From Eledone cirrhosa (Eukaryota), in NCBI GenBank assembly GCA_964016885.1, contig OZ024743.1:39990001-40054000 (forward strand): 64,000 nt of DNA, in the 5' to 3' direction. Under the pieces are notes generated by a model that saw only the letters and a list, made by a program, of their open reading frames with translations, was not told the DNA's origin and did not search any database. The stretch's first letter is position 1; each line of letters starts with the position of its first letter. This document shows, piece by piece, positions 2,279 to 31,337 of this stretch. Position numbers and translations under genes: made by a program.

Positions 2279-2749
<471 letters not shown>

Positions 2750-2986: not shown

Positions 2987-3132
2987 AAGGGAGGTCCGAC
3001 GAGCTTTTGATTCCAGAGTTGGGCTAGATGGATACCGATCGAACCGTGGGGTAGGCAATAGCGAAAAGCGCGTCACTACACTATAAACGCAATGATTACA
3101 TAACAAATCGTCCTTCTGATTATAATTTTCAT

Positions 3133-3197
<65 letters not shown>
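3133..3197 (+). repeat. (TAA)n microsatellite, left edge of the retrotransposon cluster
   Basis: Direct observation. Confidence 0.95.
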
Positions 3198-3198
<1 letters not shown>

Positions 3199-3360
3199 TT
3201 TGTATTATATATTTTGTATTCAAAAAAAGAAAATGGTTATAAATGGAACAAAACACCCTCTGTCTACACTATATAGAACAGCGGCAATTTCAATTTCACC
3301 AACACCAGAAACTCGATACACTACCTATCCCATCACACTAAATATAACGGCAACTTCACC
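3198..3360 (+). mobile_element. Diverged fragment of the family B 5' leader, no ORF
   Basis: AAAAAAAGAAAATGGTTATAAATGGAA...CTCTGTCTACACTATATAGAACAGC...CACCAACACCAGAAACTCGATACAC matches the reverse complement of ~21200-21390. Confidence 0.75.
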
Positions 3361-3817
3361 GGCATCATAATAATAATTACTATTATTATTGTCTCAAATT
3401 TAAAAAAATGTTTAATTCAAATTTTACGGGAATATGTCAACACAAAATATAATGAAAATATATATTAAACATAGGAACACAAACTCATAGATACTATATC
3501 AGTAACCACAACACCACCGCTGCCACCACCCCACCACATCCATCATCGCCGCCACCACTCATTCAATGCTACTGACACTATTCCCCTGTTAACTTGAGAG
3601 AGAAAAGGGAAGTTGGTGGTAGCACTAGACAAGAGAGAGGCTAGCAAAAGATATAAATAGATTGACTTGGTGACCTTGCCACGGACAAACGTCTACATCA
3701 ACAATTATGGGACTGCTGGCTCACCCCTTCCTCACCAACAATATAAAAAGCCCCGGCACCACCACCGACATAGCCAGCAGCAATAACAGCCAACTACAAC
3801 AAAAAGTATATTATATT

Positions 3818-6800
3818 ATTGTAATGCACTGGGTGATTGCTGGCCTTGTCCCTGGAGTGGAGACAATTATTAATAATTTCATTCTTAAGCCACGCAATGC
3901 TCACATTAAGGAACCACTCATGATAATAACATTTAAAAAAAACAACAAAAAGAAAACCCCGTGACCAAGAAATACCGGAATGGCGGCCGGCGGGGAATAG
4001 CCATGTCTCTAGGGGAGAACGACCCCTCTAGTCTTGGTTGACACTCGTTCTAGAAGTGGTAACACGAAAAGATTACCCCTTGGCGGATAAGGATAAAACG
4101 CGACAAAATAAAGTAGATGTCTAATGATGAAATCTCATACCGGATCGGCCGTCACCCGGGTAAAAAAGGGCCGCGTCCCTCAGAGAGGAACCAGACTGGG
4201 GTCGAAAAATCAGCTAATGGTTCAAACCTTCCCATCACTTCGGAGCTGGAGACCTCCCATAACCGGAATACTCCTACTGTTGGCCCTCCATGCTCACCAC
4301 CAAGAAATCCAAAGAAAAAGAGAGAAAAATGGTCAAGGGAAGATAATAAAGAAGTCCTTGAGGCTTTCTACACTGCCATGTACTACCCATTAAATACATC
4401 GAATACAGAGCAAACATATATCAACTGGAAAAAGAAACATCCCGAAAACAGAGGCTATATTGACAGTAACAAACTAGCCAATATACGAAGAAATATTGTA
4501 AGAAAAAAGTTACTAACTGATATAGAAATTGATCAGATCAAGCTAGTAGCACAAAGTCAGCGAAGGGAAAATGAAGCATGTGTCAGTGAAAACGAGGTAA
4601 ACTGTAACACTTCGAATCCCAGAGTTGGGGCGGAATCACTGGCAACAGAACAAATTAAAGAAAGGAGCGAAAAAGTGGAGGGAGTGCATGCTCAGGATGA
4701 AACTCCAAATGAAAATAATGAGATCGTAAATGATAAAGAAATGAATGAGAATGAACTTGCCAACTTGAAGGATGAAATTATGATCGAATGGATGAAAATG
4801 AAAGAATCTGACATGGGGGAACGAGACACCCTCCCTAAGATCCAGAACTCCAAACAGAACCAAAAGATAATACACAAGACTAACATAATTCTCAAAAACA
4901 TTATCATCACAAACAAAATAAACATTACTGACTTAAATCATCTCTATTATGCATCGGCTAAAGTCACCACTCACTTATGTGAAGTGAAGATGAAAAAACA
5001 AAGGAATTCCCACAAGAAATCTACTTGGCAAGATAACATCAATCGCCAAATAAACCTTCTCCGATCTGACATAGAAATTTTAACAAACTATAAAGTAGGT
5101 GAACATGTTAAACAAACTAAACTTAGAAAATTGAAAAAAAAGTACAGTATAAGATCAACATGTGACATAGACATGCTGATAGAAACAATCAAGCAAAAAG
5201 TGTCGGCCAAAGCTGCTCGTATAAGGCGCTTTGAAAAACGATCTAGATTCTATAAGGACAATAATATGTTCAAAAACAACCAAAGAAACTTCTACAGAAA
5301 AATTGGTAAGTCAACAATAACTGCTAAATCAATACCACCCAAGGAGGAAGTGCAAGAATTCTGGGAAAAGATCTGGGCCGAAGAAAAAGTTCATAACATA
5401 CATGCCCCATGGATAGACAGACAAATGAAAGAAACAGCTCACCTTGAAGAACAAACATGGGAAAATATAACAGTTGAACAGCTGCGCTTGGCTCTAAGAA
5501 AAACCAGCAAATGGAAATCCCCAGGAAAAGACAAAATACAAAACTTTTGGATAAATGCCTTCACAGAGTCTCATGAGCTGTTAGCCCAACTTTACAATGA
5601 AATAGTTAAGGAGCCAGAAAAGATACCATCATGGCTAGTTAACGGCATTACATTCCTGCTACCGAAGAATGATGAGACAAACAATCCCAAAAATTACAGA
5701 CCGATAACCTGCTTGACCACAATGTATAAAATTTTAACATCAGTCCTAACTGAATACACATATGACCACCTGATAACAAATGACCTATTTCCCATTGAGC
5801 AGAAAGGGTGTAAACGAGGCTCATATGGCTGTAAGGATCAGCTTCTGGTTAACAAAATGATACTGGAAGATTGTCATAATAGACACAAAAATCTATCGAT
5901 TGCTTGGATAGATTATAAAAAAGCATTTGATAGTTTGCCACACAGTTGGATTGAAAAATGTTTAGAGATTTTCAAAATATCCCCCGTTGTCAGGAGGTTT
6001 TTGTCATTCAGTATGAGGACATGGAGAACGACACTCCTTTTGAATAGTGAAACAAAATCACTGGAAGCTGGAGAAGTTAACATTAATTGTGGAATTTTTC
6101 AGGGTGACTCTTTATCACCGCTTTTATTCTGCATCGCACTTATACCATTAAGTAAAATGCTCAATGAAACAAAACATGGATATAGAGTCTATGACAAAAC
6201 CATTAATCACCTGTTCTACATGGATGACCTGAAACTATTCGCAAAAAATGATGAACAATTGCAAGGGCTATTATCCACTGTGAAGCAGTTCAGTGATGAC
6301 ATTAAAATGGAGTTTGGACTGGATAAATGCGCCAAAGCAACGTTCACCAGAGGAAAGCTGCTGAAGAGTTCAGACATTAATCTTGATCGGGGGAACGTGA
6401 TAAGAGAGCTTGATCAAGAACAAACTTACAAATATCTAGGTTTTTGTGAAGGAGACGGAATCAAGCACTCGACAATGAGGGAAAGGATAAGGAAGGAATG
6501 TTACCGCAGAGTCAGAGCAATCTTAAGAACGGAATTGAATGCAAGGAATAGGATCGATGCCATAAACACGCTTGCCATACCAGTAGTAACCTACAGTTAC
6601 AATGTCATCAACTGGTCAAGCACAGAGATCCGTAGGCTCGATACAAACATCCGAAAATTCTTAACCATGCACAGAATGCATCACCCTAAGGCAGACATAG
6701 ATAGAATATATCTCCCTAGGAAAGAAGGAGGACGTGGGTTAATCCAGTTAGACATTGCGTTGAAAACTGCAACAATTGGATTATCCACATATCTAAGGGA

Positions 6801-7907
6801 ATCACATGATTGGATGATCAAACTCGTTTTGAAACACGAAAGCACCAAAAGATCATATTCCATTACAAAAGATGCACAAAGATACAGTAATGGACTACAA
6901 ATTTCAGAAGTCCCATTTACTGCTGAAATGGAAAACACAGAAAAAGCAAAGCAGGTAAAAGTAACTGCAAAGAAAGAACTGCTACAGAAACTGGCTAAGA
7001 AATGGCAAGAAAAGCCTCTGTATGGAAAATACCCAGAGCGAGCTAACAATCCTGATGTTGACAAAACTTTAATCCATCAGTGGTTGGCATCCTCTGGACT
7101 GAAATCGGAGACTGAAGGACTGATTATATCCGCACAAGATCAGTGTCTGCCAACAAAAAATTACCAAGCCAACATAATAAAAAATGGGTGCAGCCCATTA
7201 TGCCGTGTATGCAAAAAACAACCAGAGACCATTGACCATATAATTTCAATGTGCAGTCCTATAGCTCCAACCGAATACCTAAACAGGCATGACAGAGCTG
7301 CACAATACATACATTGGATAATGTGTAAGCATTTTGACCTGCCCCATCAAAAGAATTGGTGGGAGCATCAACCACCTCCCATACTTGAAAAAGATCACAT
7401 CTCAATCTTGTGGAACTTTAGCATCCAAACAGACCGAAAGATAGATGCAAATAGACCTGATATAATATTGAAGGACTTTCAAAGCAGAGTATGCCTGCTA
7501 ATTGATATGTCTGTTCCAATAGACAAGAATGTATCTATAAAAACATTTGAAAAATTGAGCAAGTATAAGGACCTGGAGATAGAAATTGGAAAAATGTGGA
7601 AATTGAGAACTAAAACAATACCAGTGGTTGTAGGCGCTCTGGGAATGATACCTAAGGGGTCTAACGACTACTTATCGCAAATCCCAGGAAACCCGCGTAT
7701 AGGAGAAATACAAAAGATAGTACTAATGGGAACTGCCCATATACTAAGGAAGATCCTGTCAATATAAGTACATCACAAGTCTAAACACTAAGGATGCATG
7801 TGTGAATATGTGTGTTCTTTCTTGAACATGGCGGACCTTGTTGTCTCTTGAGGTCACTGGTTGTGACTTGGTGATAACTCGTATAAACATAAAGCAAGAT
7901 AAATGCA
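3818..7907 (+). mobile_element. R4/Dong-clade non-LTR retrotransposon, family A copy 1 (intact ORF)
   Basis: Single RT+RLE ORF and ~140-bp 3' UTR ending in (TAA)n at 7908-7952. Boundaries set by comparison with the inverted copy at 12841-17007. Confidence 0.92.
4117..7767 (+). CDS. Retrotransposon protein: Myb-like N-terminus, reverse transcriptase, CCHC knuckle, restriction-like endonuclease
   Basis: 1216 aa. Motifs: KSPGKD, NYRPITCL, DYKKAFDS, GIFQGDSLSPLLF, HLFYMDDLK, CRVCKKQPETIDHIISMC, RHD, RPD..D..K..KYKDL, IPVVVGALG. Confidence 0.95.
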   Translation: MSNDEISYRIGRHPGKKGPRPSERNQTGVEKSANGSNLPITSELETSHNRNTPTVGPPCSPPRNPKKKREKWSREDNKEVLEAFYTAMYYPLNTSNTEQTYINWKKKHPENRGYIDSNKLANIRRNIVRKKLLTDIEIDQIKLVAQSQRRENEACVSENEVNCNTSNPRVGAESLATEQIKERSEKVEGVHAQDETPNENNEIVNDKEMNENELANLKDEIMIEWMKMKESDMGERDTLPKIQNSKQNQKIIHKTNIILKNIIITNKINITDLNHLYYASAKVTTHLCEVKMKKQRNSHKKSTWQDNINRQINLLRSDIEILTNYKVGEHVKQTKLRKLKKKYSIRSTCDIDMLIETIKQKVSAKAARIRRFEKRSRFYKDNNMFKNNQRNFYRKIGKSTITAKSIPPKEEVQEFWEKIWAEEKVHNIHAPWIDRQMKETAHLEEQTWENITVEQLRLALRKTSKWKSPGKDKIQNFWINAFTESHELLAQLYNEIVKEPEKIPSWLVNGITFLLPKNDETNNPKNYRPITCLTTMYKILTSVLTEYTYDHLITNDLFPIEQKGCKRGSYGCKDQLLVNKMILEDCHNRHKNLSIAWIDYKKAFDSLPHSWIEKCLEIFKISPVVRRFLSFSMRTWRTTLLLNSETKSLEAGEVNINCGIFQGDSLSPLLFCIALIPLSKMLNETKHGYRVYDKTINHLFYMDDLKLFAKNDEQLQGLLSTVKQFSDDIKMEFGLDKCAKATFTRGKLLKSSDINLDRGNVIRELDQEQTYKYLGFCEGDGIKHSTMRERIRKECYRRVRAILRTELNARNRIDAINTLAIPVVTYSYNVINWSSTEIRRLDTNIRKFLTMHRMHHPKADIDRIYLPRKEGGRGLIQLDIALKTATIGLSTYLRESHDWMIKLVLKHESTKRSYSITKDAQRYSNGLQISEVPFTAEMENTEKAKQVKVTAKKELLQKLAKKWQEKPLYGKYPERANNPDVDKTLIHQWLASSGLKSETEGLIISAQDQCLPTKNYQANIIKNGCSPLCRVCKKQPETIDHIISMCSPIAPTEYLNRHDRAAQYIHWIMCKHFDLPHQKNWWEHQPPPILEKDHISILWNFSIQTDRKIDANRPDIILKDFQSRVCLLIDMSVPIDKNVSIKTFEKLSKYKDLEIEIGKMWKLRTKTIPVVVGALGMIPKGSNDYLSQIPGNPRIGEIQKIVLMGTAHILRKILSI

Positions 7908-7950
<43 letters not shown>

Positions 7951-7953
<3 letters not shown>

Positions 7954-8171
7954 TTTTCTTTATTGGCCACAAGGGCTGACATCAAGAAAAACATTACAGA
8001 CGGTACAGGATGGTACAGGACGGTACGATGCACAAAACCCATATCGTACCGTCCTGTACCGTCCTGTGCCGTCTGTAATGTTTTTCTTGATGTCAGCCCT
8101 TGTGGCCAATAAAGAAATCATTATTATTGTATTGTCCCCTATATGTCGGCCCTTGTGGCCAATAAATGAAA

Positions 8172-8174
<3 letters not shown>
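7951..8174. mobile_element. Three very short Tx1-like (or related SINE) 3'-end fragments; the first two form a palindrome
   Basis: Arms 7951-8029 (-) and 8043-8120 (+), third fragment 8128-8174 (+). All end in CCCTTGTGGCCAATAAA(T)GAAA plus a (TTA)n tail, like the 3' end at 12745-12820. Confidence 0.8.
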
Positions 8175-8206
<32 letters not shown>

Positions 8207-11200
8207 GGCGACCTACGTAGTAAATCGTATCATCGTGAGCTCCGCAAAGGTTTGTTATTTTCAGTTGTTTAAAATTGACATTTATGGAAAATGTTTATTG
8301 TTAACTGTATATAAGTGCACATACATTGATTTGTGAAAAGGACACTCAAAAAGATTGGGACCCCAACTCATGATGTCGAAATGTTTTCAACCAAAATGAA
8401 CTCTTCCACACCAAAGACGACGCCTACACCATCCACCACGTCACAACCAAAACTAACGCCTGTGGAGGATTGTCCACTCCCCGGCCTATCACAACTGAAG
8501 AGAGATTGTGACGACGAGGAGTGGGAAACGGTATCAGGAAAAAATAAAAAAAGAAACCAAAAAAGAAAAAAATTCTCTTCCTTCCCCCTCCAAAAACAAA
8601 ATACAGAGGGAAACAAATAAATTAACAAACAAAAAAGTTAGGACAGATATGCCACGATCCACACCAGCATCACCAACCCCGTCACCCCAAACACCAACAC
8701 CATCACCATCATTAACCCCAACACCATCATCACCTACACCACAAAGGTCACGAAAATGCGAAACAGAAACAACCCCACAACAAACGCAAACAAAACAAAA
8801 CAACCAAAACGATACACACTACACAGCATTAAATTTGAACAACAACCAATTATTACATTACATCCAACACTACACCAGCATCACAGAAAAAGACTACACA
8901 AATACCCAAAAGTTCACACCACCACCACACATACAAATCACTGGCATCACACAGAAAACTTACATGACACTAAAACAAAAATTCCCCAAAGACATCGGAG
9001 ACTTCCGACAAGCACTCTCCAGGAGGATTTATAAGGACATCCTTCCTGAGGAGGCCACAAGCAGTGAAAAGGATGGAAAAACCGTCCTTCCTCTACGAGA
9101 AGTAAGGTAAGTGGTCTTTCCCATCTTTTCCACTCCATTTCAACATGACTTCACTCAGTATAGGTAGCATAAATGCGCGTGGCTTGGGGTCGTCATGGAA
9201 GTAGGGCCATCTCCTCAACGACCTCAGGTCACTAAACATAGATGTAGTGGCCATCAGCGACACCAGAATCTCCGAAGCACGGGCCTTCGCACCGATCTTC
9301 GGCGGCTACGATGTGTACGCATCTCCTAGCCGTCCGGGATCGAGGGGAGGACTTGCTGTGCTTTTACGGAGAGGTTTGGATCTTGCCATACGGGCCATCT
9401 TCCTGGACCCAGAAGGTAAGTTGGTGGTGCTGGACATGACCAGCGGAGACGGACAAGCTTTAAGGTTAGTGGCCGTCTACGCCCCGACAGGAGCAGGGCG
9501 GCGGATTTCTTCCGGCGTCTGGAGACTTTTCTTGGAACGTCCCGCTCTTTAGTATTAGTGGGCCACTGGAACAGGATCTTAGATGCATGCTGGGATTGTG
9601 TGGGATTAGTGGATAGGGGAGGAGTGTGCAAGAGTCTCACCAACCTGCTCAGGCGTTTTGAACTGTCTGACAGGTACCGATTGAATTTCCCGAATGTACC
9701 AATGTGGACTTGGACAAATCGCATAGGGTCATCCAGATCATATCTAGATAGAGTATTTTGTAGGGAAATAGATAGGTCTAGCATAGGCTGTCCACAATTC
9801 AAGATAGTCAGCTACACGGACCACAAATTCGTGATCTGTGTGCTTGAATTAGATAGGTTTCATAGACGAGGACCCGGCTACTGGAAGCTAAACGCGTCCT
9901 TACCAGCGCGCAAGGCCTACAGAGACCGGATTAGCGAACTAGTTAAGCGGGCGTTGACGGGGGCCATCGTCAACAGCAAGTGGTGGTTTGCTCTGAAAAG
10001 AGCGATTAGAATAGAATCCATTAGGTTTAGTAAGGCTTTAGCAATAGAGAAAAATAGAGCAGAGGGAGAACTAGTTAGAAAATTAGACGAGGCGTTTAGC
10101 AAAGGCATTGCGAACGACGTGCTTGCGGCAAAATTGGCCCTTGACCAATTCTTCAATGCAAAGCATGAAGGCTGCGTTGTCAGGGCAAAGGTGCATGCTC
10201 TCAGACACGATAAGACGAAAGCCGATCAATAAGCCCGAGTGGCGGAGGCGGGTCGTGGCAACAAACCCACGATCCGGTCTTTGGTGGACCACGACGGGCG
10301 CATGCTACTCGATCCCGGGCAAATGTGTGAAGCTTTTCAGCGACACTTCGCTCAGCTTTTCGGGGGAAGCGGTGGGCCGGGTCGAGGGATGGACTTTAGT
10401 GTCTACCTCGACGGGCTGCCGCGACTCTCGGCCACTGAGGCAGAGTGTTGCGAAAAGCCGATAACAGCCGCTGATGTACGGGAGGCAATGACTGGCTGCA
10501 CAAGGGGTAAATCGCCTGGTTTGGATGGTCTGCCCTATGAACTTTACGTACAAATGCCAGACTTGTTCGGAGGCCTTTTGGCGGACGTCTACTGCAACTG
10601 GCAACAGAACGGCAGAATTCCCAGCTCTGTGAGCCGAGGAGCGGTGGCACTGCTGAGAAAGGATCCGAACAAGGGGGATAACATAGATAATTTCCGGCCC
10701 ATAACGCTGCTAAAGACAGAGTTCAAGATTTTGGATAAGGTGCTAGCAAAGAGGTTGGCGCTTGTCGTTGATGGTCTGGTGGGAGAGGCGCAGACGTGCG
10801 CCATTTACGACAGATCCATTCACGACAACCTCCACCTCATGCGATACATCGTAGAGAGGGTAGCTAGGGAACCTGGCACGGGTGGGTCCTTGATCAATTT
10901 AGATCAGTCGAAAGCTTTCGATAGGGTCGACCATCGTTACCTAGCGGCAGTCCTGAGGGCGGCTGGCTTTGGGCCCGTCTTCAGAGGCTGGATCGCTGCC
11001 ATGCACAGCGACATCTGCTCTGTGGTGAGAATGAACGGTCACCTTTCGGAACCGTTCAACATCATGCGCTCGGTCCGCCAAGGATGTCCCCTCTCGTCCC
11101 TCTTGTACGTATTGACTCTCGAGCCATTACTGCACAAACTGGAGACGTTGAGGGGCATCCCGCGCGAACTAGGATGCGGAAGATCCGTGTCAGCATATGC

Positions 11201-12819
11201 GGACGATGTCACCGTAGTGGTGTCGAACGCCAAACACATCGAGGCGATCGGCACTACACTAAGAGAATACGAAGCGGTGACAGGAGCAATGATCAACCAG
11301 GAAAAGTCAGTGGGCCTGCAGCTCGGCACCTGGAGAGGCAGGTCCATGCCGTCCAACAGCGTCGTCGGACGCTGGACGGACGGACCGGTTAAATTGCTAG
11401 GGGTCTGGTTCGGTCCGGACCTCCAGACGGACAAAAACTGGGACGAGGTGACGAGCAGGGTGGCTTCTCTCACCCAGAAATGGGCCGAGAGGAAGCTGTC
11501 CCTGAAAGGTCGAGCGGAGGTGGCTAATGCGTACATCGCGTCCGTCATCTACTACCGCCTGACCGTCGTACCTTGTCCTAAGCCTCGCCTGACTGCGCTG
11601 GAACGTTTGCTCTTTCGCTTTTTGTGGAAGGGACGCGCTCCGATGGTCAGGCGGTCCATCCGTTGTCAACACCCGCTACGTGGAGGGCTGGGCATGCCGT
11701 GGCTGATGATACGCAGGCACGCGCTCAGGCTACGACATCCCCACCTCTTCCTCGACGGTGATCAGGTGTGGTCACCGTTTGCTAGACACGTATTTCTCCA
11801 GCTCGTTTCCTTGAAGGAGCTGCAGTCCTGGGTCAAGCGAAGACGGAGAGGGAGCGCCTGGAGACTGGAATGTCTTCAGGCGCTCACAGCCCTCGACCAA
11901 TCGGGCAATGTGATCGGTGGAAACTCCACCTTGGCGTTCTATAGAGGATTAGTTGAGGGGAAGAGCGACGACGTACTTGGGGAAACTCTAGGCGTCGACG
12001 AAAATCAACTAGCCAATCTCTTCGGAAGAACTTTCGGGCCAGGGCCTATGGACAACTTCCAGAAATCTCTGGCCTGGCAGTGCTACCGAGGAGCCTTTCC
12101 AGTTCGGGATAAACTCTACAGGCATGGAGGTGCCGTCAGCCGGGCATGTCCAAGTTGCGCACATGGCGACGAAACCGTCCTGCACGCACTCGTCCAGTGT
12201 CCGAAAATTGCTGACTTGTGGGTTTATGTCGAACACCTGCTGTCGCGTTTAGGACGGATCCGGCTATCATCTGAGTCCATCGTGAGGATTGCCCCGCCCT
12301 CCTCCTTTAGCCGGGAACGGCAGGCAGTTTTTATCTGCCTGGTGGCCATGGCGAAAGAGATAGTATGGTGGACACGTTTGAAAGGGCCTGAAGACGAGCA
12401 CTTACCTCTTCGGTGATGCTCTGATTGACTTTTTCAAATTTCATTTGAAAAGGAAAATCAGAGTAGAGAGGGAAGTGCTCTCTTCCCAGCATTTTGTTGA
12501 AAGATGGGTGAAAGAAGCAAGAATGGCTCGAGTGAATGGGCCTATTCTGAGTATATATCTGTAAATTAAAGGTGGAAAACTGGGAGAGGGCACTTGCCTT
12601 GATGGTCAGGGTCATTGTGGCTTTTTACTGGGCTTTCTCCACAAATGTCCCTCCGAAGTCTCCCCCCTATTGCGGAATTTTTCATTGTTATTTTTTGTTA
12701 CACCCTCTGTTTTTTTTTGTTTTTTTACACGCAGAAATGCCCATTTGTACCGTCCTGTATTGTCCTGTACTGTCCTTAATGTCTACTTTATGTAAATCCT
12801 TGTGGTTAATAAAGAAAAC
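8207..12819 (+). mobile_element. L1-clade, Tx1-like non-LTR retrotransposon, near full length, disrupted
   Basis: Flanked by (TTA)n on both sides. A/C-rich 5' region with Pro/Thr-rich ORF1-like frames (8333-9110), ORF2 remnants, and a 3' UTR with AATAAA. Confidence 0.85.
9145..12564 (+). pseudogene. ORF2 (AP endonuclease + RT + C-terminal Zn finger) with stops and frameshifts
   Basis: SINARGL, VYAP, SYLDR, TDH, GPGYWKLN, KSPGLDGLPYELY, NFRPITLL, DQSKAFDRV, RQGCPLS, AYADD, CPSC..DETVLHALVQC. Split across ORFs 9247-9552, 9558-10232 and 10239-12416. Confidence 0.9.
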
Positions 12820-12840
12820 ATTATTATTATTATTATTATT

Positions 12841-15800
12841 TGCATTTATCTTGCTTTATGTTTATACGAGTTATCACCAAGTCAAAACCAGTGACCTCAA
12901 GAGACAACAAGGTCCGCCATGTTCAAGAAAGAACATACATGTTCACACATGCATCCTTAGTGTTTAGACTTGTGATGTACTTATATTGACAGGATCTTCC
13001 TTAGTATATGGGCAGTTCCCATTAGTACTATCTTTTGTATTTCTCCTATACGCGGGTTTCCTGGGATTTGCGATAAGTAGTCGTTAGACCCCTTAGGTAT
13101 CATTCCCAGAGTGCCTACAACCACTGGTATTGTTTTAGTTCTCAATTTCCACATTTTTCCAATTTCTATCTCCAGGTCCTTATACTTGCTCAATTTTTCA
13201 AATGTTTTTATAGATACATTCTTGTCTATTGGAACAGACATATCAATTAGCAGGCATAACCTCCTTTGAAAGTCCTGCAATATTATATCAGGTCTATTTG
13301 CATCTATTTTTCGGTCTGTTTGGATGCTAAAGTTCCACAAGATTGAGATGTGATCTTTTTCAAGTATGGGAGGTGGTTGATGCTCCCACCAATTCTTTTG
13401 ATGGGGCAGGTCAAAATGCTTACACATTATCCAATGTATGTATTGTGCAGCTCTGCCATGCCTGTTTAGGTATTCGGTTGGAGCTATAGGACTGCACATT
13501 GAAATTATATGGTCAATGGTCTCTGGTTGTTTTTTGCATACACGGCATAATCGGCTGCATCCATTTTTTATTATGTTGGCTTGGTAATTTTTTGTTGGCA
13601 GACACTGATCTTGTGCGGATATAATCAGTCCTTCAGTCTCCGATTTCAGTCCAGAGGATGCCAACCACTGATGGATTAAAGTTTTGTCAACATCAGGATT
13701 GTTAGCTCGCTCTGGGTATTTTCCATACAGAGGCTTTTCTTGCCATTTCTTAGCCAGTTTCTGTAGCAGTTCTTTCTTTGCAGTTACTTTTACCTGCTTT
13801 GCTTTTTCTGTGTTTTCCATTTCAGCAGTAAATGGGACTTCTGAAATTTGTAGTCCATTACTGTATCTTTGTGCATCTTTTGTAATGGAATATGATCTTT
13901 TGGTGCTTTCGTGTTTCAAAACGAGTTTGATCATCCAATCATGTGATTCCCTTAGATATGTGGATAATCCAATTGTTGCAGTTTTCAACGCAATGTCTAA
14001 CTGGATTAACCCACGTCCTCCTTCTTTCCTAGGGAGATATATTCTATCTATGTCTGCCTTAGGGTGATGCATTCTGTGCATGGTTAAGAATTTTCGGATT
14101 TTTGTATCGAGCCTACGGATCTCTGTGCTTGACCAGTTGATGACATTGTAACTGTAGGTTACTACTGGTATGGCAAGCGTGTTTATGGTATCGATCCTAT
14201 TCCTTGCATTCAATTCCGTTCTTAAGATTGCTCTGACTCTGCGGTAACATTCCTTCCTTATCCTTTCCCTCATTGTCGAGTGCTTGATTCCGTCTCCTTC
14301 ACAAACACCTAGATATTTGTAAGTTTTTTCTTGATCAAGCTCTCTTATCACGTTCCCCCGATCAAGATTAATGTCTGAACTATTCAGCAGCTTTCCTCTG
14401 GTGAACGTTGCTTTGGCGCATTTATCGAGTCCAAACTCCATTTTAATGTCATCACTGAACTGCTTCACAGTGGATAATAGCCCTTGCAATTGTTCATCAT
14501 TTTTTGCAAATAGTTTCAGGTCATCCATGTAGAACAGGTGATTAATGGTTTTGTCATAGACTCTATATCCATGTTTTGTTTCATTGAGCATTTTACTTAA
14601 TGGTATAAATGCGATGCAGAATAAAAGCGGTGATAAAGAGTCACCCTGAAAAATTCCACAATTAATGTTAACTTCTCCAGCTTCCAGTGATTTTGTTTCA
14701 CTATTCAAATGGAGTGTCGTTCTCCATGTCCTCATACTGAATGACAAAAACCTCCTGACAACGGGGGATATTTTGAAAATCGCTAAACATTTTTCAATCC
14801 AACTGTGTGGCAAACTATCGAATGCTTTTTTATAATCTATCCAAGCAATCTATCCCACATATCTAAGGGAATCACATGATTGGATGATCAAACTCGTTTT
14901 GAAACACGAAAGCACCAAAAGATCATATTCCAATTATAATCTATTATGACAATCTTCCAGTATCATTTTGTTAACCAGAAGCTGATCCTTACAGCCATAT
15001 AAGCCTCGTTTACACCCTTTCTGCTCAATGGGAAATAGGTCATTTGTTATCAGGTGGTCATATGTGTATTCAGTTAGGACTGATGTTAACATTTTATACA
15101 TTGTGGTCAAGCAGGTTATCGGTCTGTAGTTTTTGGGATTGTTTGTCTCATCATTCTTCGGTAGCAGGAATGTAATGCCGTTAACTAGCCATGATGGTAT
15201 CTTTTCTGGCTCCTTAACTATTTCATTGTAAAGTTGGTCTAACAGCTCATGAGACTCTGTGAAGGCATTTATCCAAAAGTTTTGTATTTTGTCTTTTCCT
15301 GGGGATTTCCATTTGCTGGTTTTTCTTAGAGCCAAGCGCAACTGTTCAACTGTTATATTTTCCCATGTTTGTTCCTCAAGGTGAGCTGTTTCTTTCATTT
15401 GTCTGTCTATCCATGGGGCATGTATGTTATGAACTTTTTCTTCGGCCCATATCTTTTCCCAGAATTCTTGCACTTCCTCCTTGGGTGGTATTGATATAGC
15501 AGTTATTGTTGACTTACCAATTTTTCTGTAGAAGTTTCTTTGGTTGTTTTTGAACATATTATTGTCCTTATAGAATTCAGATCGTTTTTCAAAGCGCCTT
15601 ATACGAGCAGCTTTGGGCGACACTTTTTGCTTGATTGTTTCTATCAGCATGTCTATGTCACATGTTGATCTTATACTGTACTTTGTTTTCAATTTTCTAA
15701 GTTTAGTTTGTTTAACATGTTCACCTACTTTATAGTTTGTTAAAATTTCTATGTCAGATCGGAGAAGGTTTATTTGGCGATTGATGTTATCTTGCCAAGT

Positions 15801-17005
15801 AGATTTCTTGTGGGAATTCCTTTGTTTTTTCATCTTCACTCCACATAAGTGAGTGGTGACTTTAGCCGATGCATAATAGAGATGATTTAAGTCAGTAATG
15901 TTTAGTTTGTTTGTGATGATAATGTTTTTGAGAATTATGTTAATCTTGTGTATTATCTTTTGGTTCTGTTTGGAGTTCTGGATCTTAGGGAGGGTGTCTC
16001 GTTGCCCCATGTCAGATTCTTTCATTTTCATCCATTCGATCATAATTTCATCCTTCAAGTTGGCTAGTTCATTCTCATTCATTTCTTTATCATTTACGAT
16101 CTCATTATTTTCATTTGGAGTTTCAACCTGCGCATGCACTCCCTCCACTTTTTCGCTCCTTTCTTTAATTTGTTCTGTTGCCAGTGATTCCGCCCCAACC
16201 CTGGGATTCGAAGTGTTACAGTTTACCTCGTTTTCACTGACACATGCTTCATTTTCCCTTCGCTGACTTTGTGCTACTAGCTTGATCTGATCAATTTCTA
16301 CATCAGTTAGTAACTTTTTTCTTACAATATTTCTTCGTATATTGGCTAGTTTGTTACTGTCAATATAGCCTCTGTTTTCGGGATGTTTCTTTTTCCAGTT
16401 GATATATGTTTGTTCTGTATTCGATGTATTTGATGGGTAGTACAGGGCAGTGTAGAAAGCCTCAAGGACTTCTTTATTATCTTCCATTGACCATTTTTCT
16501 CTCTTTTTCTTTGGATTTCTTGGTGGTGAGCATGGAGGGCCAACAGTAGGAGTATTCCGGTTATGGGAGGTCTCCAGCTCCGAAGTGATGGGAAGGTTTG
16601 AACCATTAGCTGATTTTTCGACCCCAGTCTGGTTCCTCTCTGAGGGACGCGGCCCCTTTTTACCCGGGTGACGGCCGATCCGGTATGAGATTTTATCATT
16701 ATACATTTACTTTATTTTGTCGCGTTTTATCCTTATCCGCCAAGGGGTAATCATTTCGTGTTACCACTTCTAGAACGAGTGTCAACCAAGACTAGAGGGG
16801 TCGTTCTCCCCTAGAGACATGGCTATACCTCGCCGGCCGCCATCCCGGTATTTCTTGGTCACGGGGTTTTCTTTTAGTTGTTTTTTTTTAAATTGTTATT
16901 ATCATGAGTGGTTCCTTAATGTGAGCATTGCGTGGCTTAAGAATGAAATTATTAACAATTGTCTCCACTCCAGGCATAAGGCCAGCGATCACCCAGTGCA
17001 TTACA

Positions 17006-17007
<2 letters not shown>
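12841..17007 (-). mobile_element. R4/Dong-clade family A copy 2, ORF broken by an internal inverted insertion
   Basis: Near-identical reverse complement of 3818-7907, with (TTA)n on both sides. Confidence 0.92.
12981..16706 (-). pseudogene. Family A RT-RLE ORF split in two (14934-16706 and 12981-14813)
   Basis: Both halves align to the 1216-aa protein. The break coincides with an 89-bp insertion at 14851-14939. Confidence 0.9.
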
Positions 17008-17074: not shown

Positions 17075-20000
17075 CCTTGAATCTCAGTCATTGATGTTGG
17101 TTAACTGGAAAGTCCGTTGGAATGAATATCAAGCCACTACCTGCAGCCTCAGATATTCAGGACGTATCGGAGGGTTCTTGCTGTTCCAAGCAAGCATGCC
17201 TTTTGAAGCGTTCCAAAAAGCGTGAAGGGGCCGATTTTCTTTAACCATCCCTGGAAACTTTTGGAGATAGTCCCCAGTGCGCCTATGACAATCGGGATCA
17301 CTTTGACTTCATGGCAGTTCAAAATCCTTTTCACCTCCCAATTTAGGTCCTGGTATCGGTTAATTTTCTCCCTCTCCTTCTCTTGCACTCTCGTGTCGAA
17401 AGGGCAGGCCACATCCACAATCAGACACGATCTTTTTTCTTTGTCCACAACCACCAGGTCAGGTCTATTGTGTTCCAGTGTTTGTCCGTCTGTATCATAA
17501 AATCCCACAGCACCTTCACCTTATTGGTCTCCGTCACCGCCTCTGGCCTATGCTCATACCATTTCTCAGAATGTGGTAAATTGTTTACTCTGCACAGGTG
17601 CCAGTGGATCACCCTGCCCATCACATCGTGTCTCCAGCTTTTATAGTGGGTCGAGCCACAGTCTCCTCTCTCTCTCCACAGATCCTGCATAGTGGGCTAG
17701 CCTCCTCCTTGTAAATATGGTGCTTCAACCACTTCGTTTTGAGGGCCTGCTCCTGCGCAGCCATTAGCATTCCTTCTGTAGCCTTTTGAGGTCTCCTCTT
17801 CTCAACCAGTTCCATGTCTGTGGATCTCTAAATTCAGTTTTCTCAAAGAAGGTACTATGAAGGGATTTTCCCTTAAGGCTGCTCTTCCTCCTTGATGTTA
17901 TTTCCTCCTTGGACATCCCCTGGCCTACTGTCCCCTCCTTCAGTACAGTTCTGAGCATTGGCTCCTTACTATAGGTCACGTATTTGAATAGGTTGTTTTT
18001 CTCCATCTGAACACAGTCCTCTATGCTGATAAGACCTCTTCCACCCTCAGATCTCCTTAGGTAGAGTCTATCGACATCACTCCTCTTGTGGAACATGTTG
18101 TAGATAGTCAATAGCTTCCTAGTCTTCCTATCCATTTCTTTTTGTTCAGCAACATTCCATCTCAGAATTCCCGCACTGTATCTAATAATAGACACAGCTC
18201 GGGAATTTACTGCGCTTATGGCATTTCTGCTGTTCAGATGTGACTTCAATACGCTCCTTACTCTCCGAATGTATTCAGTTCTTAACAATTCCTTCATTTT
18301 GTTGTTCTTTATGCCATCAGCCTCCAGAACGCCCAAATACTTGTATCCTTCCTCAGAGTCAATTTCCTTTATCATCTCACCTGTTGTTATCTGGATCCCG
18401 TTACTTCTGATCAACCTACCTCTCCTCATCACAATGACTCCACATTTACTAATACCAAACTGCATACATATATCACTGCTGAAAATACGGACAGTGTCAA
18501 CAAGCACATCCAACTCCTTCTCACTTTTCCCGAAGAGCTTAAGATCGTCCATGAAGAGCAGGTGATTGATGGTAAGCTCTCCCTTTCCCAAATTGTATCC
18601 TGCTCTCACTTTACGCAGCATAATGGTCAAGGGCATCAGGGCAAGGACAAACAACAGAGGGGACAGGCTATCTCCCTGGAAGATACCTCTCTTGATCTTC
18701 ACGCTTCCCAAGGATACTCCAGTTGATGTCAACTCTGTCTCCCAGGACCCCATACTCCTGCCCAGCAACTGTCTGATGTTATCTGCCACCCTGAAGATCT
18801 CCAGGCTTTTGGTGATCCAAGAATGAGGCACCATATCAAATGCCTTTCTGTAGTCTATCCATCCCATGGCAAGATCAGTGTGTCTCCTCCTGCAATTCCC
18901 CATTACCATCTTATCAATAAGTAACTGGTCCTTTGTACCACGTGACTTCTTTCTGCATCCTTTCTGTTCGTCCGGCAACAAGTTGTTTCTGTGGAGGTGA
19001 TGGTAGATTTCCTCAGACACAATGCTCGTCAACAGTTTCCACATTACGGACAGACATGTGATAGGTCTATAGTTGGTAACATCATTACCCTTGATTCGGT
19101 CTTTCATTGTCAGAACTGTGGTACCTTTTGTCAACCACTCTGGCACCTCACCCGACACCAAGCAGTCATTGAACATGGCCGTCAGCTTCGGGTGGAGGGA
19201 TGTTAAATTGTTAATCCAATACCCCTGCACACCATCTGGGCCTGGTGATTTCCAGTTGGTTAGATTTTTGGCCTGCCCCTTAAGTGTTTCAACTGTGATA
19301 CTCAAATCAGTTTGTTGGTGGGGCCTGCTCACCGATCTCGCTCTGTACTGTCTCAATCCACCCTGCCTGGACATTATGTCTAACATCCTGCTCCCATATT
19401 CCTCTCCAGAATGTTTTAGTTTGCTCCGCCCCAGGGATCAAGTCGTTGCCTCTTTCTTGCCCCTCAAGCTGTCCAAACAGCATCTTCTGGTTGCTGTCGA
19501 ACATGCGGTTCTGTTTGTACTGACTGACTCTGTTCTCGTATCGCCTGATTTTTGCACTCTTTGCTACAATGCGTTGCTTCAGTTCCTCTATGATAATATT
19601 TAGCTATTTCCTCCTAGTTTTGTACTTTATTTCCAGTCTATTTTTAGTGCCTATGTTTTTTAGTGTCCCATTCAGTAGTGACTCAAGCTTTCCTATGTCA
19701 TTTCTCATTTCCCCGATTTGACCACTCAGTCGTTTCTTCCACCACGGCTCTGCTCTTTCTTGTCTGTTGTTTCCTCTCGCTTTTATACCAAGTAGTTTCC
19801 TCACCGTATTTGCTGTTGCTTTGAGGATATTGTTGCACTGGTGAAGGCTCCTCGCCTCAAGGTATGGGATGACTTTGTTTACCTTAGCTGTTGTTTCTTT
19901 TAACTTTTTCCTGTCTACAAATCTTAGGTTCATATGTCTCCCACTATCATTGTTCAATTCATCTACCACTAAATTTAGGATGTCAACCGAATCTTGTCCT

Positions 20001-21504
20001 AGCCCGTCAGCATTCATCTCCTCAGTGGCCGTATCTCTGTTCCAGGTATTATTTATCTCAGTATTCAGATCATTGTCTGCTTCGTGTGGTTCCTCCGTTC
20101 TCAGGACCTCTTCACCTTCATTTCCCACTGGCTCGCTTGTCTTGCATATTACACCCGCCATCTCCAAGCCATTCTCTCTGCTCAGTTCCTCCAGTTCCAG
20201 CTCGCTTATCCACCCATTAGTTCTTATTACCCGAGCCTGCCCGGCCAATTTTTGTTCATCTAATTTAAATAGACCAATCTCGTTCCAGATGTTATGCATC
20301 CGTCTCCTGTAGCCCCTCTCCTTGGCGTTACTTTTCAGGTAACATTGCATAACAGTTCTATTCAATTCTTTAGTCCAGTTGGTTCTGGCCCCTTTCCTTC
20401 TTCTTCTTCCTCCAACATCAGCAGTATTTGGTTGACAGTCAGGTTCCTGCTGCTGAGCCAGGGGGCACCTGTTGGGTGAGAGTCTGTCACATGACGTTCT
20501 AGTCTCCATTTCACCGTTATTCGAACTGTTTATGTTCGATATTTAAACACTCTTATCGAGGATTGGCGAATGTATGGTTACATAGCCATCTGTGGATTCG
20601 CCGTTCCACTTGGCCCTTGTGTGGCATTATCACCACGCTGTATACGAACACACATAAACAAACAAACACACAGGCAGAAAGGGCCCCAAAAATGAATAAG
20701 AATAAGTTTCATTGTAATGTAGTGTTCGAATGTCTGACTTAGTTTTTGTTTTTTTAGTTTTAGTTTTTCCTCCCTCTTCTCTGTCCGTCCGCCTGCTTCT
20801 CTCTTCATTCTTATTTTCTTTACATTTTTTTTCTTTTTTTTTTTTTTTTTCTGTTTGTTTTTCTCGTTTTTTGCTGTTGTTGCTATGCTGCTTTGGTTTT
20901 GTTGTTTGTTTTTTCTTTTTTTCTTTTGAGTCTATCTATATATTTTGATGCCTTCCTCTTTTTTAGTAGTAGGAATTCTATAATGTGGTGGCAGCAGCCA
21001 GCAGGGAGTTGTGGGTGACTGGCGGCGGTAGCGATACTGAGACAGTGGTGGTGGTGATGTCGATACCGAGGCAGCGGTGGTGTTGATGTGATCGTATTAC
21101 TGTAGTGATGGTGTTGTAGCGGTGGTAGCAGTGAAGGAGTGAAGGAGTGGTGGCGGCGGTGATGGGATAGTGGTGGTAATGATGGCAGTAGTGAACGGTG
21201 GTGGTGAAATTGCCGTTATCTGGCTGTTGTGTTTAGTGTACACAGGTGATGAGGTGGGTGGTGTATCTAGTTTCTGGTGTTGGTGAGTTTGGCTGTTCTA
21301 TATAGTGTAGACAGAGGAGAGGAGGGGGGGGGGGTTCTTCTTCCATTTATAGCCATTTTCTTTTTTGGATATACAGTGTACAATACAAAGTTGAATATTT
21401 GAATATTTGAGCCTTATAACAATATATTTTGGGTCCGAATTTTTTGGGGCTCAAGCCGGGTGCTTTACGTAGCATTTGTACTAAGAGTTGTTATTTCACA
21501 AATG
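17075..21504 (-). mobile_element. R4/Dong-clade family B copy 1, disrupted, slightly 5'-truncated
   Basis: Homologous to 21535-26394 and flanked by (TTA)n. Lacks the first ~70 bp and the leader duplication of copies 2 and 3. Confidence 0.9.
17149..20509 (-). pseudogene. Family B RT-RLE ORF with frameshifts and a deletion in the CCHC region
   Basis: Fragments 19604-20509, 17764-19386, 17621-17815 and 17149-17508 match the 1130-aa protein. Confidence 0.9.
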
Positions 21505-21535
<31 letters not shown>

Positions 21536-21608
21536 CTTGAATCTCAGTCATTAATGTTAGTTAACTGGAAAGTCCGTTGGAATGAATATCAAGCCACTAC
21601 CTGCAGCC

Positions 21609-24600
21609 TCAGATATTCAGGACGTATCGGAGGGTTCTTGCTGTTCCCAGCAAGCATGCCTTTTGAAGCGTTCCAAAAAGCGTGAAGGGGCCGATTTTCT
21701 TTAACCATCCCTGGAAACTTTTGGAGATAGTCCTCAGTGCGCCTATGACAATCGGGATCACTTTGACTTCATGGCAGTTCCAAATCCTTTTTACCTCCCA
21801 CTTTAAGTCCTGGTATCGGTAAATTTTCTCCCTCTCCTTCTCTTGCACTCTCGTGTCGAATGGGCAGGCCACATCCACAATCAGACTCGATCTTTTTTCT
21901 TTGTCCACAACCACCAGGTCAGGTCTATTGTGTTCCAGTTTCTTGTCCGTCTGTATCCTAAAATCCCACAGCACCTTCACATGATCGTTCTCCCTCACCG
22001 CCTCTGGCTTATGCTCATACCGTTTCTCAGAATGTGGTAAATTGTTTGCTTTGCACAGGTGCCAGTGGATCACCCTGCCCATCACATCATGTCTCCAGCC
22101 CTTATAGTGGGTCTGGGCTAGGCGTTTACACTCGGATACAATGTGAGCCACAGTCTCCTCTTTCTCTCCACAGATCCTGCACAGTGGGCTAGCCTCCTCC
22201 TTGTAGATATGGTGCTTCAACCACTTCGTTTTGAGGGCCTGCTCCTGCGCAGCCATTAACATTCCTTCTGTAGCCTTTTTTAGGTCTCCTCTTCTCAACC
22301 AGTTCCATGTCTGTGGATCTCTAAATTCAGTTTTCTCAAAGAAGGTACTATGAAGGGATTTTCCCTTAAGGCTGCTCTTCCTCCTTGATGTTATTTCCTC
22401 CTTGGACATCCCCTGGCCTATTGTCCCCTCCTTCAGTACAGTTCTGAGCATTGGCTCCTTACTATCAGTCACGTATTTGTGTAGGTTGTTTTTCTCCATC
22501 TGAACACAGTCCTCTATGCTGATAAGACCTCTTCCACCCTCAGATCTCCTTAGGTAGAGTCTATCGACATCACTCCTCTTGTGGAACATATTGTAGATAG
22601 TCAATAGCTTCCTAGTCTTCCTATCCATTTCTTTTTGTTCAGCAACATTCCATCTCAGAATTCCCGCACTGTACCTAATAATAGACACAGCTCGGGAATT
22701 TACTGCGCTTATGGCATTTCTGCTGTTCAGATGTGACTTCAATACGCTCCTTACTCTCCGAATGTATTCAATTCTTAACAATTCCTTCATTTTTTTGTTC
22801 TTTATGCCATCAGCCTCCAGAACGCCCAAATAATTGTATCCTTCCTCAGAGTCAATTTCCTTTATCATCTCACCTGTTGGTATCTGGATTCCGTTACTTC
22901 TGCTCAACCTACCCCTCCTCATCACAATGACTCCACACTTGCTAATACCAAACTGCATACATATATCACTGCTGAAAATACAGAGAGTGTCAACAAGCAC
23001 ATCCAACTCCTTCTCACTCTTCCCGAAGAGCTTAAGATCGTCCATGAAGATGAGGTGATTGATGGAAAGCTCTCCCCTTCCCAACGTGTATCCTGCTCTC
23101 ACTTTTCGCAGCATAATGGTCAAGGGCATCGGGGCAAGGACAAACAACAGAGGGGACAGGCTATCTCCCTGGAAGATACCTCTCTTGATCTTCACGCTTC
23201 CCAAGGATACTCCAGTTGATGTCAACTCTGTCTCCCAGGACCCCATACTCCTGCCCAGCAACTGTCTGATGTTATCTGCCACCCTGAAGATCTCCAGGCT
23301 TTTGGTGATCCAGGAATGAGGCACCATGTCAAATGCCTTTCTGTAGTCTATCCATCCCATGGCAAGATCAGTGTGTCTCCTCCTGCAATTCCCCATTACC
23401 ATCTTATCAATAAGCAACTGGTCCTTTGTACCACGTGACTTCTTTCGGCATCCTTTCTGTTCGTCCGGCAACAAGTTGTTTGTGTGGAGGTGATGGTAGA
23501 TTTCCTCAGACACAATGCTCGTCAACAGTTTCCACATTACGGGCAGACATGTGATAGGTCTATAGTTGGTAACATCATTACCCTTGATTCGGTCTTTCAT
23601 TATCAGAACTGTGGTACCTTTTTTCAACCACTCTGGCACCTCACCCGACACCAAGCAGTCATTGAACATGGCCGTCAGCTTCGGGTGGAGGGATGTTAAA
23701 TGTTTAATCCAATACCCCTGCACACCATCTGGGCCTGGTGATTTCCAGTTGGTTAGTTTTTTGGCTTGCCCCTTAAGAGTTTCAACTGTGATACTCAAAT
23801 CAGTCTGTTGCTGTGCCTGCTCACCGATCTCCCTCTGTACTGTCTCAATCCACCCTGCCTGGGCATTGTGTCTAACATCCTGCTCCCATATTCCTCTCCA
23901 GAATGTTTTAGCTTGTTCCGCCCCAGGGATCAAGTCGTTGCCTCTTTCTTTCCCCTCAAGCTGTCCAAACAGCATCTTCTGGTTGTTGTCGAACATGCGG
24001 TTCTGTTTATACTGACTGACTCTGTTCTCGTATCGCCTGATTTTGGCACTCTTTGCTACAATGCGTTGCTTCAATTCCTCTATGATAATATTTAGCTTTT
24101 TACTCCTAGTTTTGTATTTTATTTCCAGTCTATTTTTAGTGCCTATGTTTTTTAGTGTCCCATTCAGTAGTGACTCAAGCTTTCCTATGTCATTTCTCAT
24201 TTCCCCGATTTGCCCACTCAGTCGCTTCTTCCACCACGGCTCTGCTCTTTCTTGTCTGTTGTTTCCTCTCGCTTTTATACCAAGTAGTTTCCTCACCGTA
24301 TTTGCTGTTGCTTTGAGGATATTGTTGCACTGGTGAAGACTCCTCGCCTCAAGGTATGGGATGACTTTGTTTACCTTAGCTGTTGTTTCTTTTAACTTTT
24401 TCCTGTCTACAAATCTTAGGTTCATAGGTCTCCCACTATCATTGTTCAACTCATCTACCACTAAATTTAGGATGTCAACCGAATCTTGTCCTAGCCCGTC
24501 AGCATTCATCTCCTCAGTGGCCGTTTCTCTGTTCCAGGTATTATTTATCTCAGTATTCAGATCATTGTCTGCTTCGGGTGGTTTCTCCGTTCTCAGGACC

Positions 24601-25001: not shown

Positions 25002-25571
25002 TTCACCGTTATTCGAACTGTTTATGTTCGATATTTAAACACTCTTATCGAGGATTGGCGAATGTATGTTTACATAGCCATCTGTGGATCCGCCATCCCA
25101 CTTGGCCCTTGTGTGGCATTATCACCACGCTGTATACGGACACACATAAACAAACAAACACACGAGGAGAAAGGGCCCCAAAAATGAATAAGCATAAGTT
25201 TCATTGTAATGTAGTATTCGAATGTCTGACTTAGTTTTTGTTTTTTAAGTTTTACTTTTCCCCCCCCTCTTCTCTGTCCGTCCGCCTGCTTCTCTCTTCA
25301 TTCTTATTTTCTTAACGTTTTTGGGGTTTCTTTTTTTGTTTTTGTTTTTCTCTGTTTTTCTCGTTTTTTACTGTTGTTGCTGTGCTGCTTTTGTTGTTTG
25401 TTTTTTCTTTTTTCTTTTGAGTCTATCTATATATTTTGATGCCTTCCTCTTTGTTAGTAGTAGGAATTCTATAATGTGGAAGTGGTAGCCAGCAGAGACT
25501 GGTGGCGTTGGCGATACTGAGACAGTGGTGGTGGTGATGTCGATACCGAGGCAGTGGTGGCGGTGATGCGA

Positions 25572-26394: not shown

Positions 26395-26432
<38 letters not shown>

Positions 26433-31294: not shown

Positions 31295-31337
<43 letters not shown>

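What the first reader, a model, noticed from the sequence alone, without database searches (positions are those of the whole stretch)
7908..8206. Microsatellite polarity flips at a palindrome made of two head-to-head LINE 3' ends
Seen: (TAA)n, a 79-bp Tx1-like 3' end on minus, a 13-bp spacer, the same 3' end on plus, then (TTA)n. Both arms are truncated at the same point and differ at about 3 positions. Everything left of this point uses TAA polarity and everything right uses TTA. Known: classical twin priming inverts a 5' segment but does not duplicate the 3' terminus. Inference: two convergent TPRT events at a pre-existing (AAT)n(ATT)n junction, or cDNA fold-back, created the symmetry centre that set the orientation of later insertions.
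Basis: partly seen in the sequence, partly recalled or inferred. Interest (0 to 1): 0.7.

Follow-up and report, generated by a model that had tools for sequence, protein, structure and literature searches.

The report
LINE snap-back flips microsatellite polarity
This small mirror-image repeat is likely the scar of one jumping-gene insertion whose new DNA copy folded back and copied itself plus its landing site, which would have created a reversed TAA patch in a TTA repeat where a later element sits facing the opposite way to its neighbours; 17 hairpins of this kind turned up in the same genome.

Summary
The palindrome is real (arms 7953-8029 and 8043-8119, 3 mismatches). The 13-nt spacer is LINE sequence continuing the right arm, so the arms are not cut at the same point. 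Pattern scans of the genome found 22 head-to-head events; 17 are same-subfamily hairpins with 4-24-nt loops. In five, the mirror copy runs past the LINE end into 22-100 nt of local flank, which points to DNA-templated fold-back rather than to two insertions. The 28-kb cluster sits inside a dispersed repeat; all 15 two-sided paralogues show TTA polarity and no TAA run, so the TAA tract here likely arose with the hairpin. Best reading (0.68): snap-back of a ~90-nt Tx1-like cDNA made the polarity flip; one young Dong/R4-like element later entered the TAA patch facing opposite to its sibling. At this locus only pure repeat was mirrored, so double priming stays possible. Polarity is split only inside the cluster. 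Snap-back is known from engineered R2 insertions; I found no report of this germline form. The scan earlier noted the antiparallel Dong/Tx1 arrays in this genome and fold-back Penelope insertions in other genomes.

The parts
2991..3115 (+). left half of the dispersed host repeat into which the whole cluster inserted
   Evidence: paralogues about 84% identical continue through a short TTA-polarity motif into the sequence found at 31337
3116..3137 (+). degenerate ATT-polarity motif (CTGATTATAATTTTCATT) ending in a 2-nt AT overlap with the TAA tract; inferred rejoining point of the fold-back strand
   Evidence: sequence; paralogue spacers; rejoining is inference
3136..3198 (+). (TAA)21, left part of the reversed-polarity tract
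3199..7909 (+). young Dong/R4-like RLE-type element (family Dong A), slightly 5'-truncated, ORF 4117-7767; splits the TAA tract
   Evidence: 98.9-99.9% identical to 19 other copies over the first 250-700 nt
7910..7952 (+). (TAA)14, right part of the reversed-polarity tract; inferred fold-back copy of the (ATT)n target, later expanded
7953..8029 (-). short arm: 77-nt inverted copy of the Tx1-like family A 3' end; carries all 3 departures from the family sequence
8030..8042 (+). 13-nt loop = family A 3' UTR sequence continuing the right arm; 0-2 nt (AT) microhomology at the fold point
8043..8119 (+). long arm: family A 3' end (with the loop, 90 nt), inferred first-strand cDNA
   Evidence: 100% identical to locus L004 over 90 nt; family A copies carry ORF2 65-89% identical to the neighbouring Tx1-like ORF2
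8120..8128 (+). (ATT)3, start of the original-polarity target
8129..8173 (+). 45-nt 3' end of a third subfamily (C), an ordinary truncated tandem insertion, likely later
   Evidence: 197 such same-strand neighbours within 21-81 nt genome-wide, some in tandem arrays
8174..8206 (+). (ATT)11
8205..12819 (+). Tx1-like L1-clade element (family B), broken APE-type endonuclease, RT and zf-RVT, same 3' core
12839..17007 (-). second Dong A copy, 5'-truncated, between TTA tracts; forms a 4-kb 97-98% inverted repeat with 3818-7928
17075..31294 (-). three tandem Dong-like family B elements separated by TTA tracts (21505-21534, 26395-26432)
31295..31336 (+). (TTA)14, right end of the original target
31337..31430 (+). 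right half of the host repeat

Best explanation
The palindrome is likely the product of one aborted insertion of a Tx1-like LINE whose ~90-nt cDNA folded back on itself and was copied through its own 3' end and the (AAT)n primer, which would create a TAA-polarity patch inside a TTA-polarity site. Shown: the loop is LINE sequence on the right arm; both arms are one subfamily; the host site has TTA polarity in paralogues; sister hairpins mirror their local flank. Inferred steps: bottom-strand nick in (AAT)n; reverse transcription of 90-92 nt; release of the cDNA 3' end; self-priming on 0-2 nt (AT); strand-displacing extension by the LINE RT or a host end-joining polymerase; rejoining to the left end on a 2-nt AT overlap; later tract expansion; entry of a Dong A element (+) into the TAA patch and of Tx1 (+) and Dong (-) elements into the TTA side.
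For: Loop is family sequence. 17 of 22 head-to-head events are hairpins with 4-24-nt loops over stems of 10-71 nt. 10 of 14 pairs with arms long enough to test differ at 3 or fewer of 36 nt, against 267 of 1953 random pairs of 3' ends (binomial about 1e-6). Mirrored local flank beyond the LINE end: L041 100 nt, L042 67, L040 37, L034 34 (split by a later SINE piece), L151 22. The original flank resumes as a direct repeat in L034 (34 nt), L035 (19), L150 (18), L042 (12), L131 (9), as expected for one insertion event. Three of the shortest hairpins (L147, L148, L150) fold at the LINE's own 3' stem around CTTGT, with 4-nt stem homology in L148 and L150. Host repeat: 15 of 43 paralogues keep both halves within 400 nt, all with at most one TAA unit and 1-11 TTA units. 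The left-arm variant pair occurs at one other place in the genome, a copy that ends differently, and 0 of 34 family A rows carry two of the three variants, so no second source family is evident. The Dong A (+) copy is 98.9-99.9% identical to other copies, consistent with being younger than a hairpin with 3 of 77 differences.
Against: At this locus the mirrored flank is pure (AAT)n, so DNA-templated copying is shown only for sister loci. Fold-point homology here is 0 nt against the best-matching copy and 2 nt against the ACATGCAC variant (12 of 34 rows; only 1 row combines it with CCCATAT by exact match). One paralogue of 14 with only the left half (L171) has about 10 TAA units at the same site with no hairpin, and some empty paralogues (L136, L145, L166) hold a single ATAATT, so a TAA run can arise there by another route. 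A bare TAA/TTA junction exists at 50280-50385. All three differences lie on one arm. The number of head-to-head neighbours with two full cores (18 loci) is only about twice the random expectation of 8.6; the case rests on geometry and identity, not on the count. The hairpin class was defined after seeing the loci, and the background came from the first 18 Mb of one contig.
Confidence: 0.68

Rival explanations
1. Double priming: both broken DNA ends primed on the (AUU)n tail of the same or a sister RNA, and the two short cDNAs were joined head to head. This would also create the TAA tract anew.
For: Only pure repeat is mirrored here; AT overlap at the left junction could be a priming homology; twin priming is established for L1 (PMC2912911, passages); earlier AI notes propose this for Penelope hairpins.
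Against: Cannot give the 22-100 nt of mirrored local flank in L041, L042, L040, L034, L151; two independent cDNAs need not stop within 4-24 nt of each other in 17 loci; classical twin priming uses an internal RNA site.
Confidence: 0.14
2. Post-insertion fold-back: a break in an already integrated LINE 3' UTR was repaired by hairpin priming or replication template switching, deleting the upstream body and mirroring the 3' end and flank.
For: Gives the same hairpin and mirrored flank; self-annealing of resected ends makes inverted duplications (10.1101/2024.12.14.628481, passages); all three differences on one arm fit error-prone copying.
Against: No remnant of a family A body lies left of the TAA tract; the host repeat is intact to its TTA motif; direct repeats of the flank in five sister loci tie the hairpin to the insertion event.
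Confidence: 0.1
3. Two independent insertions converged on a pre-existing (TAA)n(TTA)n junction.
For: Four of 22 head-to-head events are mixed-subfamily pairs (L037, L047, L048, L049); bare junctions exist (50280-50385); L171 shows a TAA run in the same host repeat; arms differ at 3 sites.
Against: No microsatellite between the arms; same subfamily (family A is 7 of 63 background ends by a rough classifier); TTA-only paralogues 15 of 15; left-arm variants match no source family.
Confidence: 0.06
4. Assembly or library fold-back artefact.
For: Palindromes are a known long-read artefact (own knowledge); no read or contig spans the whole structure.
Against: Arms differ at 3 sites; a separate-run unitig holds the fold point and two private variants with no difference; both outer flanks join up as one host repeat.
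Confidence: 0.02

Closest known systems
Snap-back 5' junctions of R2-mediated (PRINT) insertions (PMC11371274, passages; PMC11331408, passages)
   Same: [quoted passage not shown]
   Different: There: RLE-type R2 protein, engineered template, cultured human cells, low frequency. Here: natural germline-fixed copies of an APE-type LINE, very short cDNAs, copying runs through the element's own 3' terminus into the primer DNA and reverses a microsatellite.
L1-associated inverted duplications and foldbacks (10.1101/2024.12.14.628481, passages; PMC10191854, passages)
   Same: Self-annealing on about 2 bp with a small hairpin primes an inverted duplication of 50-220 bp near a TPRT site.
   Different: The inverted duplications in the passages read lie on the reciprocal (5' upstream) genomic end and do not duplicate the element's 3' terminus; foldbacks on the RT end are large replication/fusion rearrangements. 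Somatic or experimental, not fixed.
Twin priming (PMC2912911, passages)
   Same: Gives an inverted element segment joined head to head with the 3' segment.
   Different: Second primer anneals internally, so the 3' terminus and the target flank are not duplicated; here both are.
Penelope-like elements with inverted pLTRs (PMC3846280, passages)
   Same: Head-to-head 3'-end palindromes, one arm shorter, attributed to self-priming.
   Different: Routine layout of a different class (GIY-YIG); here a rare outcome (17 among about 22,600 exact 3' cores, a lower bound) of an L1-clade LINE.
Microsatellite-targeting LINEs: Dong (TAA)n; Kibi (TC)n, Koshi (TTC)n (PMC3812793, passages; PMC4494074, passages)
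   Same: Strand-specific residence in a microsatellite explains the orientation of every element in the cluster.
   Different: Those passages do not describe reversal of target polarity.

Membership tests
cDNA snap-back product | loop is element sequence on one arm only | tested here: met
cDNA snap-back product | both arms from one template (same subfamily, shared private variants) | tested here: met
   same subfamily here; shared private variants in L038, L041, L131; this locus has no shared private variant, 3 differences
cDNA snap-back product | mirror copy extends into locus-specific target DNA | tested here: inconclusive
   only pure (AAT)n here; met at L041, L042, L040, L034, L151
cDNA snap-back product | microhomology at the fold point | tested here: inconclusive
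   0-2 nt here depending on source variant; 1-6 nt at L042, L043, L130, L131, L148, L149, L150; 0 or untemplated bases at others
cDNA snap-back product | empty site lacks the reversed tract | tested here: met
   15 of 15 two-sided paralogues; the true orthologous site could not be read
classical twin priming | inverted segment is internal; 3' terminus present once | tested here: not met
   3' terminus present on both arms
L1 clade / Tx1 group (families A, B) | APE-type endonuclease, RT closest to L1, zf-RVT | tested here: met
   family B ORF2: RVT_1 and zf-RVT; human L1 ORF2p E 1e-42 versus R2 1e-21; Exo_endo_phos only weak, E 0.004, below cut-off, gene broken; family A ORF2 65-89% identical to B
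L1 clade / Tx1 group (families A, B) | phylogenetic placement with named Tx1 elements | not tested
Dong / R4 clade | single ORF, RT plus C-terminal RLE, no APE; (TAA)n flanks in sense orientation | tested here: met
   1216-aa ORF matches R2 proteins over residues 448-1160; CCHC and PD..D motifs read by eye; TAA flanks on the sense strand for all five copies in the window
Dong / R4 clade | phylogenetic placement with named Dong elements | not tested
   label recalled; TAA target from PMC3812793 passage

The most novel reading that the evidence does not exclude
Snap-back of LINE cDNA, often at the element's own 3' stem-loop, is a standing source of TAA/TTA polarity switches across this genome, including bare junctions whose hairpin arms were later deleted; each switch makes microsatellite-seeking LINEs face each other and so seeds multi-kb inverted repeats that can drive inversions.
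Probability: 0.25. Interest if true: 0.65.

Novelty: new variant of a known kind. Interest (0 to 1): 0.48.

Why it matters
It gives natural, inherited examples of a repair intermediate so far seen mainly in engineered R2 insertions and tumour L1 events, with junction-level proof at sister loci that the new strand copied its own primer DNA. It also shows a route by which a retrotransposon can rewrite the strand polarity of its own target, turning a head-to-tail array into one that holds a 4-kb near-perfect inverted repeat. The 17 loci offer a ready test set for which polymerase finishes aborted TPRT and for the role of the LINE 3' stem-loop.

Tried and rejected
(1) I first read TATTATATTATT at 3805-3817 as a relic of an ATT target beside the Dong 5' end; it is element-internal, rejected. 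(2) The palindrome as a mobile unit: only the window matches the whole 167 nt among 40 scored candidates of 875, and other hairpins have different fold points; rejected. (3) Larger inversion breakpoint: host halves are collinear; the 4-kb inverted pair is two copies of a young family with different 5' ends; rejected. (4) Orthologous empty site in public runs: nothing laid in three runs and only repeat-derived pieces in X5; uninformative. (5) Folding 8020-8128 included bases of the copied arm, so its low energy is circular; RNA folds of the 3' ends show the small CTTGT stem in families A and C but z-scores of -0.1 to -0.5, so the stem rests on covariation seen by eye. (6) Automatic fold-point calls were unreliable for L035, L036, L040, L147 and L151 because no close reference copy was held; not used for homology counts. 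(7) ESM Atlas gave only generic RT clusters. (8) L046 was dropped from the count (window hairpin matched to the third 3' end) and L044/L045 counted once (identical duplicates).

Full report
Observation. The window is G000:C4:39990001-40054000 of a 3.0-Gb animal genome. An inverted repeat of 86 nt, 97% complementary, lies at 7944-8029 and 8043-8128; 77 nt per arm are element sequence, with 3 mismatches. (TAA)n lies left and (ATT)n right. A search with 7953-8119 scored 40 of 875 candidates: only the window matches all 167 nt, while the others match from about the start of the spacer to the end. The spacer is therefore the element's own 3' UTR: the plus copy is 90-92 nt, the minus copy 77 nt. All three differences are on the left arm; the right arm plus spacer equals locus L004 exactly. 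A unitig of run X5 covers 7981-8056 without a difference, 27 nt short side, under the tool's 31-nt rule, and may come from the assembled sample.

Surroundings. The hairpin lies in a 28-kb stack: (TAA)21, a Dong/R4-like element on + (3199-7909), (TAA)14, hairpin, (ATT)3, a 45-nt 3' end of subfamily C, (ATT)11, a Tx1-like element on + (8205-12819), (ATT)7, a second Dong A copy on -, and three Dong B copies on -, ending in (TTA)14. The Dong A ORF matches R2 proteins over RT and C-terminus; the Tx1-like ORF2 is closest to human L1 ORF2p with a weak, broken APE domain; family A copies carry ORF2 65-89% identical to it. The names Tx1 and Dong are recalled labels, not tree results. Of 63 background 3' ends, 44 are followed by ATT tails, 9 by CTAT, 1 by AAT and 9 by other sequence. 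Polarity is split only inside the stack; a bare (TAA)10(TTA)25 junction lies at 50280-50385 and TTA tracts occur upstream of the window.

Other head-to-head pairs. The exact 16-nt 3' core occurs 22,625 times. Patterns for an inverted core followed by a core within 0-201 nt, plus one for very short arms, gave 23 loci or 22 events (L046 dropped, L044/L045 merged). Random placement predicts about 8.6 neighbours for the full-core patterns against 18 loci found, so the count alone says little. The make-up does: 17 are hairpins with loops of 4-24 nt on stems of 10-71 nt, one is a complex same-family pair, four are mixed pairs. Of 14 pairs long enough to test, 10 differ at 3 or fewer of 36 nt, against 267 of 1953 random pairs. 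In L041, L042, L040, L034 and L151 the mirror runs 100, 67, 37, 34 and 22 nt into local flank, and in L034, L035, L150, L042 and L131 the original flank recurs as a direct repeat. L040 is the same event in a GATA array: 37 nt of reversed repeat, then GATA resumes. Copying of flank DNA cannot come from a second RNA, so these five are fold-backs. L147, L148 and L150 fold at the element's own terminal stem around CTTGT.

Ancestral polarity. The outer flanks of the stack (2991-3115 and 31337-31430) are two halves of one dispersed repeat. Of 43 paralogues, 15 hold both halves within 400 nt (11 with 5-35 nt between, 4 with a SINE-like insert); all have at most one TAA unit and 1-11 TTA units. Fourteen show the left half only, and one of these (L171) has about 10 TAA units with no hairpin; fourteen show the right half only. 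The loop places the first strand on the right, predicting an ATT-polarity target; the paralogues agree. In the window the TAA tract begins after ...ATTATAATTTTCATT with a 2-nt AT overlap.

Mechanism. Likely: nick in bottom-strand (AAT)n, 90-92 nt of cDNA, release, self-priming on 0-2 nt, extension back through cDNA, terminus and primer repeat, and rejoining to the left end, leaving a TAA patch. The left-arm variants match no source family and are read as later mutation or copying error. The Dong A (+) copy is 98.9-99.9% identical to 19 other copies, consistent with later entry into the patch; with its minus sibling it forms a 4-kb 97-98% inverted repeat. The enzyme is not identified. Rivals: double priming on the RNA tail (0.14), fold-back repair after insertion (0.10), two insertions at an old junction (0.06), artefact (0.02).

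Comparison. Snap-back junctions are described for engineered R2 insertions (PMC11371274; PMC11331408; passages). Small-hairpin inverted duplications at L1 sites are described on the reciprocal end (10.1101/2024.12.14.628481; PMC10191854; passages). Twin priming is internal (PMC2912911; PMC12350158; 10.1101/2024.08.27.596794, one passage). Penelope elements show routine head-to-head palindromes (PMC3846280, passages). Dong, Kibi and Koshi targets: PMC3812793, PMC4494074, passages. PMC13282606 (passages) lists active Dong-R4 and L1-Tx1 families in an octopus and has no hit for 'palindrom'. Nine searches of the open library found no report of inherited LINE 3'-end hairpins that reverse a microsatellite; subscription papers and supplements were not seen. 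Earlier AI notes of this scan describe the antiparallel Dong/Tx1 arrays and a GATA sister family in this genome and Penelope fold-backs elsewhere; none of those shown describes Tx1 snap-back.

Verdict. Real, recurrent, best explained by cDNA snap-back that created the flip; a new variant of a known repair outcome. Interest 0.48.

Noticed in passing
window 2451-2626: Perfect 71-bp inverted repeat with a 34-nt loop between (TA)n tracts; Rfam gives only generic hairpin matches below gathering scores. Possibly a MITE or Penelope-type fold-back (recalled resemblance).
   Followed up: partly
window 50221-50463: (CTA)18(TAA)10-12 directly followed by (TTA)25: a bare polarity junction with no LINE arms.
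   Followed up: no
window 3818-7928 and 12820-17007: Two young Dong A copies form a 4-kb 97-98% inverted repeat 4.9 kb apart, a possible substrate for inversion of the hairpin and the Tx1-like element.
   Followed up: partly
G000:C27:5.37-6.27 Mb (listing): Tandem arrays of 86-96-bp family B 3' ends joined by ATT: a satellite that seems built from a LINE tail.
   Followed up: no
L070-L129: The terminal stem around CTTGT covaries between subfamilies (GCC/GGC, AACC/GGTT, GGCC/GGCC or GGCT), and subfamily D has CTAT tails instead of ATT.
   Followed up: partly
L148:1480-1640: Two hairpins in one insertion: a terminal snap-back, (ATT)n, then a second fold before the element body resumes on the minus strand; looks like repeated template switching.
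   Followed up: no
L006:1200-1520 and L004: The AATAAT motif in the family A 3' UTR is itself a target for opposite-strand SINE and family B insertions, giving mixed head-to-head pairs.
   Followed up: partly
L134, L136, L139, L171: The host repeat often occurs as inverted pairs of its halves next to (TA)n, like a long-TIR non-autonomous element.
   Followed up: no
window 3196-3336 and 21246-21392: Dong A and Dong B share a 5' segment at about 74% identity; Dong B carries about 330-bp tandem units at its 5' end.
   Followed up: no
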